Under the pieces are notes generated by a model. The model did not search any database and was not told the origin of the DNA. It saw only the letters and a program-made list of their open reading frames with translations. A stretch of DNA of 63,602 nt, filler included, from Chrysochromulina tobinii (Eukaryota): assembly GCA_001275005.1 (NCBI GenBank). It is 6 parts of 6 records of this genome, joined end to end, with 100 filler letters (N's around TTAATTAATTAA, not from the genome) between each part and the next. Parts side by side here need not be neighbours in the genome. Positions count along the whole stretch, not along the records: positions 33,931 to 46,062 come from JWZX01000700.1; 5 more parts are not named here. One strand, written 5' to 3'. A program made the translations under genes and the position numbers. This document shows, in pieces, positions 3,001 through 63,300 of the stretch. Positions within the stretch are counted from its first letter, which is position 1; each line of letters opens with the position of its first letter.

Positions 3001-6000
3001 TCGAGACTGCGTCCGGAAGCTGCAGGCGGATAGGTGCATACCCACTCGCTACGACTGCGTTACACCTCTGCCACGACACCTGTACGAAGCCGCCGCAAAC
3101 GGCGGTCGCTCCGACCGCCACCTGCACGCCCCACGGGCCCATCGCACCGTTGAGCTGCGCCGTGAGCCCGCTCGAGAGCGAGAACACGAGCATCTCGCTC
3201 GCGCGAAGCTGCAGCTGCTGCCCATCGGTGAAGCGCGCCACAGCTTGTACCTCGCCAGTTGCCCCTTCGACGACAAGCTGTTGCTGCAGCCGCAAGCTTG
3301 CTGGCATCTGAGCGCTCACCGGCTGCCAGGGCACAGATGACGACAGCGATTGGTTCCAGGAGATGCCAGTCACAACCAGTGCGAGGATGCTGACCACGCT
3401 CACGCTCGCATTACTCACCCGCACCACCGCGGCTCCAGCCAGCGTGAACGCACTCGAGCCGCTCAGTATGATGCGCGCCTCGCCAGGAGCCGCGGCTGTC
3501 ACCTCGCGGCCGCTCACTACCACGGCTGAGCCAATGGCGCCAAAGCTCACAAGTCGAGAAACGTCGACGCCCGCCACGCTCGGCAGCCCGGCGCCACCAA
3601 ATGTTGCCACCGCAGAGACCCGCGTCGACTGATACGCGGGGCGGCTACAGTCGCTGCTCGCGCTCACACCCGCGATGCGATGAAGCTCCGCGTCCTCGGC
3701 ATTGACTACTAACTGAAGTGGGTACCACACACGAACGGCAACAACGGCTTGCAAGTCGCCCAAGCTGACCAGCACTTCGACGCTAGACTTGCCGGCAGTA
3801 TTGGTTGAGGCCACGACAACCCTGCACCCGTCGAGCTCAAATACTGCAAAGCTGTCTGCCTGTGAACAACTGTACGAGGACGCCGGCGCACTCGTCAGCC
3901 CAGACTGCGGCCGGTCGAACCACATGAGCGCCGTGATCCTAGTGTCCACCTCCACGCCATCGAGGACAGCGGTATTGGTGAGCTCGGTCGTAGGAGCGTA
4001 CGCGAGCACACCCACTGCGCGAATAGGCACGACTGTGAGCTGCCCCTCAGATTGCAACCCATTACGTTCATCGCTCACGCCCGCAGGCCGCGCGCTCACA
4101 TACTCGAATGTGCCCTGATTGATCATGGAATCGGCGGTCGCACGGATCACTCCACCGAATTTTATTTCTTCGCTTACCGTCATGATCACCTTGAATGTGA
4201 ATGTTGCGAGGGTCAGGCTCGATCGATTGGTCACGGTGCTGGGATCGACTCCCGAAGCCAGCCCGCTAGCAAGTGCGATGAATGTGCCCGCCGACTCAAG
4301 GTGCGAGTCTAACGGCTGCTGATACGCGGATGAGTAGCTCCAAGACATCAATCGCAGCACTGTCACATCATACTGCATCGTGAACCTCCACAGCATCAGT
4401 GCAAACGCCGGCGCGCCTGTGTGCGCTGACACTGTCACCCTGAACGTATCGTTAGTAAAGAGCGGAGCACGCACAGACGATACCAGCATGCCAGCCGACG
4501 ACAACGCGGGATGCAACGGCGCCCCTGCCAGCTGTACTTCGCCCGCGTCCGTCCTCATGATCTCAGTGCCGTCGTAGGAAAGTATAACGATTGCAGACGC
4601 CGTCGCCTCGGAGCTGAACCAGCTGGCTGGCAACGTATCTGTGCACTCGCCAGCGCCGCCAGCTGGTAGCTGGACCGAGCACAAAGAGCTTGTACGCACC
4701 AGCTGCCCGTTGGAGTGGGTCAGCTCGAGCACCACTGCAAGGCCTGCAAGGCGAACTTGTGTGTTTCCTGCTGGGTCGCGCAGCTGGAAGCCAATCGCAA
4801 CCGAGCTCCGGTCGATATACAAGCTCGTGGTACGTGCGCTAGCGACCAAGGTGGCCGCGTGGGGCAACGACACTGAGTAGTTTGACTGAATGGTGAATGA
4901 CGTACCATTCGCAATGCCCCGAACGGAGCCAGAGGCGCCGGCAGGTTGCCCGCGGAAGAAACCAAAGTGCGCGCCTCTCACGTCGCGTGCTGACACTGAG
5001 GTGGTCGCTAGCGCATACCCAGGGCTGTTCCCGACTAGCGACACCGTGCCGATGCCGTCAGAGACCAGCAGTGCGTCATCTTCGCAGTACAAAGGTGGAA
5101 GTGATGAAGGTGGTGGCGGAGACGGTGGCGGTGGCAGCGGAGGCGGCGGTGACGGCCCAGGTGGAGGAGAAGGTGGCGGAGGTGTCATGGAGATTCCAAA
5201 CGAAGTGATCACACTCAAAGAAGGAGACGAAATGATATCTATCGGGTTGAAGAAAGAGCTCGGCGTCGAAGTTATGTCGAGTAGCGACATGCCTGCTGGA
5301 TGACTAGTCACATCGGTGGGCAGCCAAAGGGGTGGAACTTGCAGCCCGCGGAGCGGATGGTGTGTAGGCAATGTCACGGCGGGCATGAGCGCAAAATCAC
5401 CTTTCTCTTGTAAAGTCAGGACGCCCTCTTGGTGAATAGGTGTACGACCTGGCTCGTAAAGTTGGTCGAAGCGCAACAAGCTATCCGGTGGAAGGGAGCT
5501 GAACGACGCAAAGCTGCTTGCCACGAGGGAGGTGGGAATAGCCAGGTCCATGTGGTGCATTACTTCCATGTCTTCCACGATCGCTCTGTCGAAGGCCTCT
5601 TGCAGCTGCTGCGCAGCCTCGGCAAAATGGAAATGCAAAGGCGGTACTGGGCCAAGCGAGCTGAAGGATGTAAAGCTGCTTGCAAGAAGTGATGTGACGG
5701 CATTCATGTTTAGCACGGCGTCGCCGTCAAAAGCGGGCACCGCAGGTAGATTGATGATGTCGAAGGCCTCTTGCAGCTGCTGTGCAGCCTCGGCAAAATG
5801 GAAATGCAAAGGCGGTACTGGGCCAAGCGAGCTGAAGGATGTAAAGCTGCTTGCAAGAAGTGATGTGACGGTATCCATGTTGAGCACTGCGCCGTCGTCA
5901 AAAGCGGGCGCCAGTATATCCATGTTGAGCAAGGCGTCTTCGTCAAAAGCGGGCGCCGATATATCCATGTTGAGCAGCACGGCGTCCTCGTCAAAAGCGG

Positions 6001-37740: not shown

Positions 37741-39366
37741 TCAACCCAGACGAGTCACTAGGCGAGGCTGTGGCAGTATCGAGGTTGTGATGGTGGCGTG
37801 GTTGAGGGCGTAGGTCCGGAGGGCGGCCTTGACGGAGGGCGTAGCTCCAGTAGAGGCTGAGTGTGGCCTTGATGAAGCGCCGTAATGGGCGCCACCACCA
37901 GTCATCTGGGCTCCGGCAGGCATCAGCTTGGGCACAGACTGGTGCTGCGGCTCTGACTTTAGCCGTGCGCGGGGCTGACCCGTGTGAATGGACCCCAGGC
38001 TGTGGTTGATGGTCGTGCCGGCCCTGGGGTTCGTCACCCGGCTCGGGTGCGGGGGTTGGCGGGGGGGGCTCTGGGTAAAGCTCTGGGACTGGGTCTCACT
38101 CGGGGACCACCGAATCAGGTGCGACGGTGCACTCGAAGGCAGCGTGCCACCTGCCGTCACGAGGGCATGGGCGCGCGACACATAGGACAATGGCGAGGGG
38201 AGGAGCGCTCGGGACGGCGCTGGAGCGCGGTTCGTCAACGACAACGTCCATGGCGGCCCGTCGGTCAAGGGGCGGGCCCCACTCACTGCCCCACTCCCCC
38301 TGCTGCAGGGCCGCAAGCTGGAGGGCATGAAGTCGGGCATGACGATATGCATGGCGGCAGGTGAGGCGGCAGGTGAGGCGGCAGGTGAGGGATGAGACAT
38401 AGAGAGCGGACTCGCGTCGTCGTGGGCGTCCTCGAGGAGGCAGGTGCCGTTACGGTTGAGGGATGAGTTGCTGGATGGGTTAGATGCCAAATTCGGTGCA
38501 CTGGTGGGCCTCGCTGATCCCTTGCTTGCCTTCTTCGGAACGATCTTCGCGGCTGGATCGACCTGAGCCACAGCCGTCGGCGATCCTGACGGGTCGAGGC
38601 TGATTGCATGCTGATTGCGTCCCTCATTGGCGGACGTCGATCCTGACGGGTCGAGGGGTCGAGGGACGCTCGTTGCGACGCTCGTGTGAACGCTCGTTGC
38701 GACGCTCGTGTGAACGCTCGTTGCGACGCTCGAGAAGGAGCCGATCGAGGAGGTCACGCACAGGCCGGGCTGCATGGTGCGGTCGTTGAGGGCCGTGCCG
38801 GAACTGCTCCAAGTCCGTGCTGCTTGCATGCTGATTGCATGCTGATTGCGTCCCTCATTGCCGGAACTGCTCCAAGTCCGTGCTGCTCTAAGTGCTTCTC
38901 TGGCAACATGGCTACTCGGGCCGGCGGAGGACGTGAAGGAGGGTGCCGATTGAGGTGCCGTTGCGCTCACTGTTTGATTAACTGTTTGACGAAGCTGCCA
39001 TCGATGCTGCTGCCATATCGACGATGCTCGTGCGATCGGAGCACGTGCTGGGTGAGCTGCAGGGCCCTGATCGCCGGTCATGGCCAAAAGGCCAGGGGCG
39101 CTTGGCATGGCGCTTGGCACGAGAGGGGAGTCCAGTCTCTTCGAGAGTCCCATCTCATAGAGTAGCCATGCCGCTTGCGTGGAGGTGGAAGGCACGGCGG
39201 TGTCCGCGCCGGTGGCGATGGTTAGGCGCGCCGCGTGCCTCGCATCGATCTCCCGGTCCACATGGAAGAAGAGCTGCAGCGCCTCATCGGTGCCCTCTTG
39301 AACGTGCGTGCTGCGCCCGGCGCGGAAGGTCGCGAACGGCGTCGGTGTTTCCTGTTGGAAGCACAT
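37741..39366 (-). CDS. Hypothetical Ser/Pro-rich protein carrying two in-frame NEGRNQHAIS insertions
   Basis: Long open frame (track 651 aa); probable ATG at 39366; low complexity. Confidence 0.55.
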   Translation of the reverse strand: MCFQQETPTPFATFRAGRSTHVQEGTDEALQLFFHVDREIDARHAARLTIATGADTAVPSTSTQAAWLLYEMGLSKRLDSPLVPSAMPSAPGLLAMTGDQGPAAHPARAPIARASSIWQQHRWQLRQTVNQTVSATAPQSAPSFTSSAGPSSHVAREALRAARTWSSSGNEGRNQHAISMQAARTWSSSGTALNDRTMQPGLCVTSSIGSFSSVATSVHTSVATSVHTSVATSVPRPLDPSGSTSANEGRNQHAISLDPSGSPTAVAQVDPAAKIVPKKASKGSARPTSAPNLASNPSSNSSLNRNGTCLLEDAHDDASPLSMSHPSPAASPAASPAAMHIVMPDFMPSSLRPCSRGSGAVSGARPLTDGPPWTLSLTNRAPAPSRALLPSPLSYVSRAHALVTAGGTLPSSAPSHLIRWSPSETQSQSFTQSPPRQPPHPSRVTNPRAGTTINHSLGSIHTGQPRARLKSEPQHQSVPKLMPAGAQMTGGGAHYGASSRPHSASTGATPSVKAALRTYALNHATITTSILPQPRLVTRLG

Positions 39367-39901
39367 TGAAACTGGGGCCACCATTTGATATTTGACGTTG
39401 CATGCAGATGCACGCGGGATCGAACCGTTTTGGACCCTATCCGGATATCCGGATAAATAATGGCATTTAGTTAATTTAGAGGCTTCGTTTGTACTCTCCG
39501 GTTCGTCCAAAACATGTACGGGCGCGGTGTTCGCATACATTTTACTTCTATTCGAACCGACACAGATTACACACGTCGCTCTGGCTCCGCGAGACCGGAA
39601 CCGACTATTAAACGTAGCGAATCCCGCACTGTCGCTGTAAACACCTCTCTTCCCCCACGGCCCTCTTTGCCTGAAGTCTGTGCCACACCTATACATGAGC
39701 GCGTGCTGGCCGAGCCGCCGCGTCGTCGTCCTCGGTTGAAAGCGCTTCCCCGAGGGCTTGTCCCCGCCTCACATCTCTACTCCTCGGAGATCACATCTCT
39801 ACTCCTCGGAGAACAGTTGATCCCTCCCACCACCCCTCGCCCATGGAGGCTGCCCTAAACGCTCAAGCTGAGGGCACCATGCTCCTAGTTCCCATGCACG
39901 T

Positions 39902-42360
39902 TCACTCGACGGGTGCGAAACGGCTTGAGAGCGGCAGGGCGAGCTCGGCCGCTGTGAAGACCCTTGCTCCGAGCTCTGCCTGTCGGCTCGTCTCCGCCTG
40001 CATGTATGGGCGGGAAGCAACCGGAAGTCGATCGGCGGTCAATCGGAGGCAATCAATCGGAGGTCAATCAGTCGGAGGTCAATCAGTCGGAGGTCAATCA
40101 ATCGGAGGTCAATCAATCGGAGGTCAATCAATCGGAGGTCAATCAATCGGAGGTCAATCAATCGGAGATGAATCGGAGGCGCGGCGCACACCTGCATGCG
40201 GCGAGTCTGGTGGAGCTCCGCGTGCTTCATCACCACCTGGCGGAGGGCCTCGCGCCGCGACCGCGTCGCGGACTGGCGCACCGCCACGACGCCCTTCTTC
40301 GCGCGCCGGCGCAGCACGGCCGCATGCCACTCGGTTGCCGCCTCCTGCTTCATCAAGTCCATCATCTTCTTCTCGGCCAGCTCCTCTTCGGCCGCGAGCC
40401 GGTTGGCATGCACCTGTGTACAATTCGCGCATGCAATTAATGAGGCAATCACGCTCCTCTTCGGCCGCGAGCCGGTTGGCATGCACCTGTACCCACAATT
40501 GGCGCATGCAATTAAGGAGGCAATCCGTGGCAATCAGTGGCATGCACCATGTCCGCGAGCGCCGCCTCTTTGGCCAAGATGCTCAGCTGCGACGTCTCCT
40601 TCTTGGCGAGCAAGATCTCGGACCGAATCTCGCGACCTTTGAGCTCTGCCGCCTTGAGCGCCTCACGCAGCGCGCGACGCTTCGCGGCGGAGGCCACGCG
40701 CTCGATACGGCGCATCGCGCTCATGTGTACCTACAACTCCCAATCGAGCGCCATTCAGCATGCAATCAGCATGCAATCAGCATGCAATCAGCATGCAATC
40801 AGCATGCAATCAGCATGCAATCAGCTGGCTGCCGTGGCATGGTCCCTGCAAATCCCAATCAGCATGCAATCAGCATGCAATCAGCTGGCAGCCGGGGCTT
40901 GATTACCTTCGCTTCCCTCGTCTCCCGACGCGCATGTGCTCCCAGTTGACGAGCGGGCGCCGAGACGAGCAGGGACGTCGAGACCGTCGTCAGCCGCTTG
41001 AGGAGTGTAGCTGAGGGCGTCGCGCGCGCCTTCTTAATGGCCTCCGGCTTGATGGTGATCACCTCCGGGTGGAAGCGCTGCGCCATGCACAACACCTTGC
41101 TCGGTGCTTTGGCACGTAGCGCCATGCCGCGCGCCACCTCTGCCGAAACCATCTTCTCGTAGTGCTCGGCTTTGGCCATCTTTGTCACGTCGTCCGTCCC
41201 CATTGCATGCGCGCGCACGGCCTCCGCCACGTCCTTGGCATGCATGTTGAACATCTGAGCCGCGTCGCTGATGATGCTCATGAACGCTTCACGCTTCGCT
41301 ACCGCGCGCTCCATTGCCGCCGTGTCGGCCATCCGCTTGGCTTCCAGTTCGAAATCCTGAGGAGGCCAGAATTGCGGCCATCAGACGTCATCAGGCAGGC
41401 GGCCATCGGCCCATCATCAGGGGCCATCAGACGTCATCAGGGGCCATCAGACGTCATCAGGCAGGCGGCCATCGGCCCATCATCAGGGGCCATCAGACGT
41501 CATCGGGCGGCTCATCAGAGGGGCTCATCAGAGGGGCTCCTTAGAGGGGCTCATCAGAGGGGCTCATCAGAGGGGCTCCTCAGAGGGGCTCATCAGAGGG
41601 GCTCCTCAGAGGGGCTCCTGGGTGCTCAATGAGCGCAGGCTGGCTAAGGGGTGCAACAAACCTGTGCCGAGCGTGCCTTCGCCACCGCCTTCTGGCGCTG
41701 CGCCTCGTGCTCGAGGAAGGCCTGTTTGGCCTCATCGAGGCGGCGCGACTCGGCGGCTGCGAAGCGCTGCTGCAGCTGCTCCATGGCGAGCGCGGCCTCC
41801 TCTTGCTCCTTCGCCTTGCGCGCCGCCACCACCTCGAGAGCGTGCTTCACGGTCGACGAGCCTTTCTCGGCGACCTCGGCGATCAGCTGCTCGCGCTTCG
41901 CGACGGCCTGCTCGCCGCGCTCGGCGGCGGCAACGCCCTTCTTGAGCGCCTGCATGTGTGCCTGGCTGCGCGCACGTGCCACCTCCTCAGCCAGCGCCAT
42001 CCGCTTCTCCTTGTCCGCCTCGCGCTTCTCGTCCTGGCTCGCCTTGCGCGCCTCCGCCTTGCTGGCCGACGCGGCCATCTTCTCGACGATGCGAGCGGCC
42101 TCAGCCGCCTCGGTAGCCTGCTTGCGCTCGGCCGCAGCGGTCGCGCGCTGAAGATCACGAGTCGCCTTCTGCTTCACTTCTTCCAGGTACGCCCCGCGCA
42201 GGGCGCCGCGCCGCTCCTTGTCCGCCGCAATGTCGTCGAGCGACTTGGGCTCGGCCTGGATGTTGATGCGGTCGCGCAAGGCCCCACGGATGGTGCGAAC
42301 CTCGTGATTGACCGGGATCTCGATACTCACTGGGAGGCGAACCTCGTGCACAGTCGACAT
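39902..42360 (-). CDS. Coiled-coil protein, 5 exons (introns 41357-41661, 40731-40906, 40414-40547, 39998-40191)
   Basis: All four GT-AG introns are phase 0 and join helical A/E/K/R-rich exons in frame; function unknown. Confidence 0.7.
40030..40180. repeat. Intronic 15-bp tandem repeat (aatcaatcggaggtc)n
   Basis: About 9 copies within intron 39998-40191. Confidence 0.95.
40755..40885. repeat. Intronic 11-bp tandem repeat (catgcaatcag)n = CTGATTGCATG on the gene strand
   Basis: Multiple perfect copies within intron 40731-40906. Confidence 0.95.
41375..41625. repeat. Intronic tandem repeats (ggccatcagacgtcatcag) and (ggggctcatcaga)
   Basis: Within intron 41357-41661. Confidence 0.9.
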
Positions 42361-46062: not shown

Positions 46063-46162
46063 NNNNNNNNNNNNNNNNNNNNNNNNNNNNNNNNNNNNNN
46101 NNNNNNTTAATTAATTAANNNNNNNNNNNNNNNNNNNNNNNNNNNNNNNNNNNNNNNNNNNN
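46063..46162. other. Artificial contig spacer
   Basis: N run + TTAATTAATTAA. Confidence 0.99.
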
Positions 46163-54723: not shown

Positions 54724-54823
54724 NNNNNNNNNNNNNNNNNNNNNNNNNNNNNNNNNNNNNNNNNNNNTTAATTAATTAANNNNNNNNNNNNNNNNNNNNN
54801 NNNNNNNNNNNNNNNNNNNNNNN
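54724..54823. other. Artificial contig spacer
   Basis: N run + TTAATTAATTAA. Confidence 0.99.
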
Positions 54824-60262: not shown

Positions 60263-60362
60263 NNNNNNNNNNNNNNNNNNNNNNNNNNNNNNNNNNNNNN
60301 NNNNNNTTAATTAATTAANNNNNNNNNNNNNNNNNNNNNNNNNNNNNNNNNNNNNNNNNNNN
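60263..60362. other. Artificial contig spacer
   Basis: N run + TTAATTAATTAA. Confidence 0.99.
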
Positions 60363-63300
60363 ATCGGAGACGACGTGATGATGAGCCAATCCAATGTGTG
60401 GTCCTACTTCTATCCCTACGTCCCTGCCATTCCCAAGGAGCACCAGCCCAGCAATCCCGCTGCCAACATTTCGCCGAACCCCCAGCTCGACGTAGAGGCT
60501 GCAAAGGCCGTGGTCAAGGACATGCGAGATCAGGAGCACAGAGCTGCGGTAGCCCAAGCAGAGGCGTTGCGAGCCGAGGCTGCCAGGGCGAAGGCGGCGG
60601 CTGAAGGGAAGGCAGCAGCCGAGGCAAAGGCGGCGGATGACAAGCTATGGATCTTCACCGACAAGTGGTTCAACCTACGGTTTGTCCTGCAGTACCACAA
60701 GCAAGGCGTGTACGCCTTTGCAGCAGCTGGCCTCATCGAGATCGGGGCTCGAGGTTCATCGTTTGGTTTCCGGTCGCTGGTGCTCACGGTCAAGAATCTT
60801 GCATCTTGTCCTCTTAAGGTGCTCGTGCCGAGGGGCACCTGGTTTCACAACAGGACGCCATTCTATCAGCCACTCGTCACCATTCGTGATTATTGGATTG
60901 AGATTGAGCCTGGAGCCCTTGCGACCGTTGAGCTCGACGCGTTCTGCGGAAGCGTAACGTACGGCTGCCCACGTCGCGACGACATGGAGCTGTCTCCGTA
61001 TGTGTTTGTCGGAGAGATGAACCAGTCCAAAGTGTGGGACTACTTCTATCCCTACGTCCCTGCCATTCCCAAGGAGCACCAGCCCAGCAATCCCGCTGCC
61101 AGTACTTCGCCGAACCCCCAGCTCGACGAAAAGGCTGCAAAGGCCGAGGTCGAGGACGTGCGAGATCAGGAGCACAGAGCTGCGGTAGCCCAAGCAGAGG
61201 CGTTTCGAGCCGAGGCTGCCAGGGTGGCGGCTGCGGAGGAGGCGGCGCAGGCTGAGGCAGCCAGGGAAGCTGCGGAGGCGGCGGCGCAGGCTGAGGCTGT
61301 CGCGGTGCGGCAGCAACAGATCGCTGTACGCAAGGTTGATGGGCTTCGAAGATCTAGCTTCCGGTTCCCTCGGAAATCTAGCTTCCGGTTCCCGCGGATG
61401 AGGCCGGCACCGATTCCTGTCGCGGATCACATGGGCGACGATGGCGATGAGGCGCGCAAGCGCATGCAGGTGAAGTCGTTCACCACGTGGGTGAACCTGC
61501 ACTTGTCGAAAGAGAGCATGGAGGTGAAGGACCTGACCAAGGACTTTGAGGACGGCATCAGGCTAATCAAGCTGATCGAGGTCATCTCGGAGGAGACACT
61601 CGGCAATTACAATCCTGCGCCGAAAAACAAGTTCGAGAAGGTGGCCAACCTGAATGCGCCGATCGAGTACATCAACAATTTCCTCAAGTCGTCCGGCATC
61701 AAGAACCAGTACTCCGTCGAGAACATCCTAGAAGAGAACGAGGTACTCATCCTCGGCATGATCTTCTCACTGATCATGCGCTTCGCCGTGCAGCACGTGT
61801 CCGAGGGCGACCGCACGGCTAAAGAGGGCCTACTGCTCTGGGCGCAGAGAAAGGTCGAGAACGGCTCCAAGGGCATCTTCTCGGCGCATCTGTGCACCGT
61901 CCAAAACTTCCACTCGTCATGGCAGGATGGCACGGCCTTCTGTTGCCTGATCCATGCTTTCCGGCCAGACCTGATCCCGGCGGAGAAGGTGTTCAAGAGC
62001 GCCGATCCGGCCAAGATGCAGGAGGTGCTCAACCTCGCCTTCGACGTCGCCGATAGCAAGCTCGGCATCCCCAAGATGCTCGATGCGGCCGACATGGCCT
62101 CGCACCGTCCGGACGAGAAGTCGGTCATGACGTACGTGCGACCCCGATTGCGTCTGGAGTGCGCCTGGAGTGCGCCTGGAGTGCGCCTGGAGTGCGCCTG
62201 GATTGCGTATGTCCTGATGGACTCCGATGATAACCGTGGCTGGTCGCTCCCTGCTCAGGTACATCTCCTTCTTTTGGAAGGAGTTCGCGTCGAACAAGAA
62301 GAAGCAGACGGCCGCCGAGCGGATCACCAAGGTGGTCGTGCGTGAGGTCCACTATAAGGAGCTGCAGGCGCAGTACGTCGAGCGCGCCACGACCCTCGCC
62401 ACATGGCTGCAGCAGACGCGGGAGAAGCTCAGCGCGCCGCCGCAGTCGAGCGACACGGAGCAGCTGCACCGCTCACTCGACCTGTACGCGGACTTCGGGC
62501 GTACTGAGCGGCCGTCCAAGCTCCAGGAGCTGCTCGACGTCGAGGCTCTCTATGAGTCGATTCAGAGCCGGCTGCAGGCGCTCGGAGGCCGCTCCTGGGA
62601 GCCGCCCGAGGGGTGCGCGCTGATGGCCCCTGATTGTCTCTGATGAGACCTGTGATGGCTTCTGATGGCCACGGATTGCCTCCCTCATCAGCTGCGCGCT
62701 GCCCAAGCTCAAGCGGTGGTGGGAGGAGCTCACATCGGCCGAGCAGACGTACGAGATTGCGATCAAGGACGCGCTCACAAACCTGAAGCGCGTGGGTGGC
62801 CTCATCAAGATGTACCACGCGCGTGCAAGTAAGCTCGATAATTGGCTTGGGCAGAAGGCCGCGTGGGTCCAGGCGTCGCATGACCACGTGCTCGCCGCGC
62901 TCGGAAAGGAACCTGCGCCTGTGACCGAGCTCGGCTTAGACAAACTCCAAGCGAACGAGGCTGTCGCCCCCGTCGAAGAGCAGCAATTCTTGCCCATGTC
63001 GCGCTCGCCCATGTCGCCCGTCAAGGCGAACCTCCCGTCGCCTGCGCCGCCACCGACCGCGCCCAAAACGCGCGCGCAGACCGCGCCGCCGCCGCCCACG
63101 CGCTTCAATACCGTCGAGGGCGCCCGGCCCGAGTCGGCGAACGCGGAGCCGCTCACGCCCAGGAGCAAATCGCTGCTCGACAGCCTCTTCGACGCGCTCA
63201 AGGAGAACTTCGGAATCAGATCGCCAGGCGAGGCCGAGCCCGCCGCCGCCGCCACTGCCGCCAACAGCATCGAGGATGTGGAGGCGGCGGCGGCGGCGGC

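What the first reader, a model, noticed from the sequence alone, without database searches (positions are those of the whole stretch)
38581..38887. Intron-family sequence inserted antisense into an exon with target-site-like duplications
Seen: two inserts with core ctgattgcatgctgattgcgtccctcat. One is flanked by a 19-bp direct repeat (38581-38599 / 38638-38656, period 57), the other by a 29-bp direct repeat (38796-38824 / 38859-38887, period 63). Both periods are multiples of 3, so the minus-strand ORF stays open and gains NEGRNQHAIS peptides. The insert is the same 11-mer as intron 40731-40906, and its end nearly matches the 3' end of intron 62613-62691 (GATTGCCTCCCTCATCAG). Inference: the repeat is an insertional element. 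Sense insertions are spliced out as new introns; antisense ones persist only when in frame.
Basis: partly seen in the sequence, partly recalled or inferred. Interest (0 to 1): 0.85.

Follow-up and report, generated by a model that had tools for sequence, protein, structure and literature searches.

The report
Backwards intron scraps inside an exon
Two short pieces of this alga's common intron repeat sit backwards and in frame inside a likely protein-coding exon, each between duplicated flanks, while forward copies of the same build are spliced out as introns, so they are likely scars of a break-repair process that probably also makes new introns.

Summary
Both repeats are exact (19 and 29 bp, periods 57 and 63), the minus-strand frame stays open, and five metagenome assemblies carry both inserts. 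Nine of nine full orthologous proteins lack insert 2 (empty site) but carry insert 1. Elsewhere, eight duplication-plus-filler events of the same build lie in sense orientation in introns: five RNA-supported, three predicted, none in frame. One 86-nt spliced intron is exactly one duplicate plus filler. A discrete transposon is not: duplications vary from 19 to 50 bp, fillers are truncated with microhomology at junctions, and there are no terminal inverted repeats. Insert 2 is probably a local copy of insert 1, leaving one antisense capture rather than two. Best reading: staggered-break repair with a filler copied from the intron family, as in Daphnia neointrons but with longer duplications and a self-similar filler. 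An excised-intron RNA template is not excluded. No RNA covered the host gene, so retention is untested. The scan had noted the sense form in this genome (e1-2577349) and a reversed exonic fragment in another (e1-9988986).

The parts
37741..39381 (-). Host ORF, 546 aa, Ser/Pro/Thr/Ala-rich, no Pfam family, likely disordered; start codon not established
   Evidence: (85-86% identical orthologues, 14-15 indel runs with the frame kept)
38581..38599 (+). Direct repeat 1, first copy (extends to 38573 with 3 mismatches)
38600..38629 (+). Filler 1: one 11-mer plus the CCCTCATTG end, antisense to the host ORF; with the AGG before it identical over 33 of 33 bp to L003:3011-3043
38638..38656 (+). Direct repeat 1, second copy (extends to 38630 with mismatches); period 57; this event is shared with all 9 full orthologues
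38796..38824 (+). Direct repeat 2, first copy
38825..38858 (+). Filler 2, 34 bp, about half an 11-mer longer than filler 1; absent from 9 of 9 full orthologues; probably copied from filler 1 with a slip
38859..38887 (+). Direct repeat 2, second copy; period 63
40414..40547 (-). 134-nt GT-AG intron holding a 38-bp copy of its downstream exon plus filler (period 73); sense counterpart of the same build
   Evidence: RNA record coordinates fit only this acceptor (860 against 933)
40731..40906 (-). 176-nt GT-AG intron with arrays of the same 11-mer
   Evidence: (joint 40727-40904 in 2 RNA runs)
62613..62691 (+). Predicted 79-nt GT-AG intron ending in the CCCTCATCAG subfamily end
   Evidence: frame restored; not RNA-tested

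Best explanation
The two inserts are tandem duplications of exon DNA with a short piece of the genome's intron repeat family between the copies, likely left by repair of staggered DNA breaks in which the broken end copied that repeat through a few matching bases. Shown: the duplication-plus-filler structure, the empty site for insert 2, the same build in spliced introns, and junction microhomologies. Inferred steps: (1) offset nicks 20-50 bp apart; (2) the free end anneals to an intron-family copy and copies part of it; (3) fill-in and rejoining duplicate the target; (4) orientation is not fixed. In sense, the filler brings branch-like and AG signals and the duplicated target brings the GT, so splicing restores the mRNA or the event is absorbed in an existing intron. 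In antisense it cannot be spliced and would survive only in frame, stop-free, and in a tolerant low-complexity protein. Insert 1 is the older capture from a distant family member; insert 2 was probably copied later from insert 1 (168 bp away before the gain) with a one-unit slip (about 60:40 against a second distant capture).
For: Empty site for insert 2 in 9 of 9 full orthologues; removing one period in silico gives the orthologue-like peptide. All 4 distinct sites holding the exact 22-mer not followed by xA have a flanking repeat: 19, 29, 36 and 50 bp. L003:3257-3342 is a spliced 86-nt intron equal to one 49-bp duplicate plus filler, in 4 of 4 RNA runs. 5 of 11 RNA-supported introns hold a copy of their own flanking exon (score 21-43); 0 of 98 mismatched controls exceed 12. 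Microhomology to family ends: AGG left of insert 1, TGC right of insert 2, 8 bp right of the L003 filler, CTGATTGCAT in L003:3257. Inserts 1 and 2 agree over 36 bp with 1 mismatch, including 6 of 7 flank bases beyond the filler; 112 of 4078 TG-starting 7-mers of the window do as well. Precedent: staggered-break neointrons in Daphnia (PMC4202315, passages); rice non-tandem duplications with inserts from within 200 bp (review PMC7407515, passage); paired nicks give tandem duplications and templated insertions (PMC11081867, passages).
Against: No filler examined runs past an intron-family end into foreign exon sequence, and two begin at the family's GTAGG start, which fits an RNA or discrete template as well. 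All sites were found by searching for the motif, so the share of breaks that use this filler is unknown. Only one antisense locus is known. No empty site for insert 1. The host gene had no RNA cover in 2 runs. No whole genome was held; about 90 kb was surveyed. The flank match is only a 1 in 37 event. The repair enzyme is not identified.
Confidence: 0.6

Rival explanations
1. Excised intron RNA is the template: it is reverse-transcribed into a staggered break (RNA-templated repair or LINE-type target-primed reverse transcription in trans), so introns of this family seed new introns in either orientation.
For: Variable-length duplications; right ends cluster 0-8 nt before the family's terminal AG while left ends vary; two fillers start at the family's GTAGG 5' end and are identical over 33 bp at unlinked loci; no filler seen carries foreign exon sequence.
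Against: Right-end clustering is partly forced by searching for the CCCTCAT motif; selection would also remove sense fillers that run into foreign exon; no poly(A) tail; unit sequences differ widely between introns (9-13-mers); insert 2 is explained by a local DNA template; no reverse transcriptase was looked for (no genome).
Confidence: 0.22
2. [quoted passage not shown]
Against: Duplications of 19-50 bp against 3-9 bp and family-fixed 3-8 nt; ends truncated at different points; no stable terminal hairpin (z 0.23, 1.08 and -1.83 for three fillers).
Confidence: 0.08
3. The inserts are not retained in protein: they are spliced, or the ORF is not expressed, so the in-frame periods are chance.
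For: No RNA contig covers the ORF in 2 runs. Insert 1 could be removed exactly as a 57-nt GA-AG intron on minus or GC-AG on plus; GC donors are common in Emiliania (PMC4028052, passages). Two in-frame events have a 1 in 9 chance.
Against: Frame kept across 14-15 indel runs to each of 3 orthologue representatives, against 1 of 5 in-frame indels outside the ORF in L006; plus frames closed; insert 2 has no exact-removal splice pair on either strand.
Confidence: 0.08
4. The duplications are assembly artefacts.
For: Short-read contigs break at these repeats (table 8).
Against: Same structure in 5 assemblies including a 96.9%-identical strain with a 3-bp change inside one arm; insert 1 peptide in 9 orthologues.
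Confidence: 0.01

Closest known systems
Daphnia pulex neointrons from repair of staggered double-strand breaks (PMC4202315, passages read)
   Same: Insertion between direct repeats of the adjacent exon end; repeated rounds build up internal repeats; new introns without a transposon.
   Different: Exon-derived repeats there are 4-12 bp and the source of most fillers is unknown; here 19-50 bp and the filler is a recognisable intron family with ready-made acceptor, and an antisense exonic copy survives.
Introners / introner-like elements (PMC9860276 passages; bioRxiv 10.1101/2020.10.14.339549 parts 1-2 of 4; PMC12130899 passages)
   Same: Family of similar introns; 3' splice site carried, 5' site recruited from the duplicated target; insertion in both orientations known for some classes.
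   Different: Their TSDs are 3-9 bp and fixed per class, often with TIRs and end-to-end identity; here length varies, ends are truncated, no TIR, unit number and unit sequence vary.
Microhomology-mediated templated insertions (MMB-TI, PMC8421209 passages; Pol theta end joining, PMC7407515 and PMC11081867 passages)
   Same: Short copied filler, 2-12 bp microhomology or microhomeology at junctions, nearby templates, serial switches, tandem duplications at staggered breaks.
   Different: Described as one-off scars; here the scar recurs with one repeat family and doubles as a functional intron when sense.

Membership tests
Introner (DNA-transposon type) | Short target-site duplication of fixed length per family (3-9 bp) | tested here: not met
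   19-27, 29, 36, 49, 24, 24, 38, 24, 50 and 24 bp arms
Introner (DNA-transposon type) | Terminal inverted repeats or fixed ends | tested here: not met
   No stable terminal fold; left ends and right ends differ between fillers. TIRs are absent from many Introner families, so this alone is weak
Introner (broad sense: family of similar introns at unrelated sites) | Sequence-similar introns at non-homologous loci | tested here: met
   33 of 33 bp identity window/L003; 16 motif hits in 90 kb against 0-4 in 8 shuffles; RNA-supported introns
Introner (broad sense) | End-to-end similarity of many copies, genome-wide | not testable with these tools
   No genome held; the few copies seen differ in unit number and unit
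Staggered-break neointrons (Daphnia type) | Insertion flanked by a direct repeat of adjacent exon, variable length | tested here: met
Staggered-break neointrons (Daphnia type) | Empty allele or orthologue | tested here: met
   Insert 2 only, at protein level, 9 of 9; not found for insert 1; not tested for the sense introns
Templated insertion (TMEJ / MMB-TI) | Microhomology at junctions and an identifiable template | tested here: inconclusive
   3-10 bp matches at 4 junctions named, none evident at the left junction of L005:8024; candidate local template for insert 2 at 2.7% chance; no junction null computed
Non-LTR retroposition (TPRT) | Variable TSD, fixed 3' end, 5' truncation | tested here: inconclusive
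   Variable duplication and left truncation met; right ends vary over 0-8 nt and were partly fixed by the search; no poly(A)
Non-LTR retroposition (TPRT) | Partner reverse transcriptase / endonuclease | not testable with these tools
   No genome held

The most novel reading that the evidence does not exclude
This haptophyte makes most of its new introns by copying its own excised intron RNA into staggered DNA breaks: a self-propagating intron family with no transposase, no inverted repeats and no fixed target duplication, where the duplicated target supplies the donor and the copied intron end supplies branch point and acceptor. The antisense exonic copies are the unspliced fossils that show insertion happens at the DNA level in either orientation, which rules out simple reverse splicing into the mRNA.
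Probability: 0.22. Interest if true: 0.82.

Novelty: new variant of a known kind. Interest (0 to 1): 0.5.

Why it matters
The source of the DNA in break-repair introns is mostly unknown (PMC4202315, passage). Here the filler is recognisable as a piece of existing introns, the duplication is long enough to read, and both outcomes are visible: spliced when sense, kept in frame when antisense. That makes two open points testable with one genome and its sister: whether insertion is strand-blind with the sense bias due to selection, and whether the template is DNA or excised intron RNA. It would also explain why haptophyte introns are repeat-filled and why end-to-end Introner searches could miss the family. 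The locus by itself is modest: probably one antisense capture and one local copy in an orphan low-complexity protein.

Tried and rejected
No whole genome was available. RNA over the host ORF: depth 0 at 37929-38309 and 39072-39452 in both RNA runs laid; the depth over the inserts comes from other repeat copies, so nothing on strand or retention. Viral contig scans: 0, 2, 0 and 0 stretches; the 2 (L009, L010, 41% GC, no array, no repeat) were dropped as chance. Prokaryote genomes: 0. More distant orthologues for an empty site of insert 1: none (5 hits, all close or partial). Host protein function: no Pfam family, no usable Atlas hit. Hairpin or TIR model: not supported. Syn/nonsyn between window and L006 in the ORF: 2 and 3, too few to use. 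Summed contig depth (about 100,000 at 40780 against about 44) was not used as a copy number, as the tool warns. P0004 was left out of orthologue counts because only 12% of the query aligns. A first splice model had the acceptor off by 2 and was corrected. Intron 40731-40906 was rejected as the direct template: opposite orientation and no CCCTCAT end.

Full report
Setting. The window is GC-rich eukaryotic DNA with repeat-filled introns. The neighbouring ABA4-like protein (PF14108) has Emiliania huxleyi (76%) and Prymnesium parvum (63%) as its best named relatives among the 120 listed, so the host is a haptophyte by inference; Chrysochromulina is my guess and comes from no call. No whole genome was held.

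Observation. The two repeats are exact at the stated coordinates, with periods 57 and 63; 3 of 3 Markov shuffles gave no such repeat. The minus frame is open over 37741-39768 and the three plus frames are closed. A scan of metagenome contigs for the 22-base core not followed by xA gave 8 loci: 5 are this locus (four 99.99% identical to the window, L006 96.9%), 1 is a second site (L003), and 2 are a third site (L005, L008). An artefact is unlikely.

Host gene. A protein search gave 4 hits; three align end to end at 85-86% identity, and their clusters add six members. All 9 lack insert 2 and all 9 carry insert 1; the fourth hit, P0004, aligns over 12% only and is left out. Removing one 63-bp period in silico gives the orthologue-like peptide. 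The frame survives 14-15 indel runs against each of the three representatives, whereas 1 of 5 indels outside the ORF in L006 is a multiple of 3; gene callers select open frames, so this is good but not unbiased evidence of minus-strand coding. The protein has no family and the Atlas model of P0002 has pLDDT 0.36, consistent with disorder. No more distant relative turned up, so insert 1 has no known empty site and the polarity of insert 2 (gain, not loss) rests on its perfect arms. RNA contigs of 2 runs did not cover the ORF: strand and retention are untested.

The same build in introns. All 4 distinct sites with the exact core have a flanking repeat (19, 29, 36, 50 bp). A repeat-with-spacer survey of the window, L003 and L005 listed 89 rows, 20 with the motif in the spacer; a looser motif search gave 16 hits against 0-4 in 8 shuffles, 8 of them with a flanking repeat. 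From these I picked by hand, dropping tandem arrays, overlapping rows and chance motif hits, 8 sense events with periods 65, 86, 112, 173 (L003), 73 (window 40380) and 94, 79, 89 (L005). RNA contigs skip the four L003 events in 4 of 4 runs and the window event (record coordinates fit only the distal acceptor); the L005 ones are predicted. L003:3257-3342 is the clean case: the intron is one 49-bp copy of the downstream exon start, beginning with GT, plus filler ending in AG. Among 11 RNA-supported introns, 5 hold a copy of their own flanking exon against 0 of 98 mismatched pairs; 7 of the 11 are in one gene chosen because it held the motif, so this is not a genome rate. None of the 8 sense periods is a multiple of 3; both antisense ones are (p 0.022, or 0.11 as one event). 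In frame, the sense reading of filler 2 has a stop in 2 of 3 frames and the antisense in 1 of 3.

Anatomy of the filler. Family introns in L003 start GTAGG, run through 11-mers and end CCCTCAT then TGCATGCAG or a close variant; another subfamily ends CCCTCATCAG. Insert 1 with the AGG before it is identical over 33 bp to the L003 filler: a one-unit member lacking its last seven bases. Insert 2 starts inside the array. Junctions share bases with the family ends: AGG, TGC, an 8-base match in L003:2975 and a 10-base match in L003:3257; the left junction in L005 shows none. No terminal hairpin.

One capture or two. Inserts 1 and 2 lie 231 bp apart in the same orientation and agree over 36 bp with one mismatch, including 6 of 7 bases past the filler, which 112 of 4078 TG-starting 7-mers match. 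No other antisense exonic copy was seen in about 90 kb. Copying from insert 1 needs a slip of one unit to explain five extra bases. I put local copying at about 60%. A review passage describes the same pattern in rice: non-tandem duplications with inserts from within 200 bp (PMC7407515, second-hand).

Mechanism. Best reading (0.6): staggered break, microhomology-primed copying of an intron-family piece, fill-in that duplicates the target, then selection by orientation and frame. Main rival (0.22): the template is excised intron RNA, because fillers stay within intron termini; ascertainment and selection weaken this. A classical Introner (0.08) fails on duplication length: 3-9 bp in PMC9860276 (passages) and fixed per class in bioRxiv 10.1101/2020.10.14.339549 (parts 1-2 of 4). 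That the inserts are spliced or unexpressed (0.08) is not excluded for insert 1, which has exact GA-AG (minus) and GC-AG (plus) removals.

Literature. Read as passages: PMC9860276, PMC4028052, PMC8379373 (one passage calling haptophyte intron gain and loss an open question), PMC4202315, PMC12130899 (no mention of haptophytes in the main text), PMC7407515, PMC11081867, PMC8421209. Searches listed no paper on haptophyte introns built from an exon duplicate plus repeat filler; I saw listings only, the library is partial, and the supplements and repository of the Introner papers, which I did not see, may list this family under Chrysochromulina. Earlier notes of this scan report the sense form in this genome (e1-2577349), similar scars in other protists (e1-7377162, e1-7376849) and a reversed exonic fragment (e1-9988986); they are unchecked leads and pointed me to three papers.

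Verdict. Real, and a new variant of a known route to introns. The added value is the pairing of spliced sense copies with an in-frame antisense copy and an empty site; the limits are one antisense locus, no RNA over it and no genome-wide count. Interest 0.5.

Noticed in passing
P0004 (protein): Unrelated N-terminal part joined to the host protein exactly at the insert-1 peptide; likely an assembly chimera through the repeat, or a real rearrangement at it.
   Followed up: no
L003:1889-2263: Array of about 4.5 units of 82 bp, each an exon copy plus repeat filler: repeated rounds of the same event, or unequal exchange.
   Followed up: partly
L003:2975-3075: Duplication across an existing donor site: the new upstream GT is used and the whole insertion is absorbed in intron 3009-3166 (RNA).
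   Followed up: yes
RNA-supported introns in window and L003: Intron start or end repeats the adjacent exon by 1-12 bases (median 6), suggesting a continuum from short to long duplications; 9 of these 11 introns have lengths not divisible by 3 or were not checked for it, most L003 ones being 3n+2.
   Followed up: partly
table 5c: RNA contigs from another locus show two similar 30-base spacers between family repeats, probably a further duplicate-plus-filler site, seen unspliced in RNA libraries.
   Followed up: no
window:58814-59401: Nine copies of a 65-bp unit, 93% matches, between genes or in an intron.
   Followed up: no
window:9744-9843, 33831-33930, 46063-46162, 54724-54823, 60263-60362: Five scaffold gaps, each two 44-N runs around 12 bases; the window is joined from several contigs.
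   Followed up: no
window:35372-36589: Protein kinase gene (PF00069) with RNA-supported introns; the RNA contigs laid differ at about 5% of sites, so they come from a paralogue.
   Followed up: partly
window:55350-55944: 6.6 copies of a 90-bp unit encoding C2H2 zinc-finger-like repeats (label from the sequence pattern, recalled).
   Followed up: no
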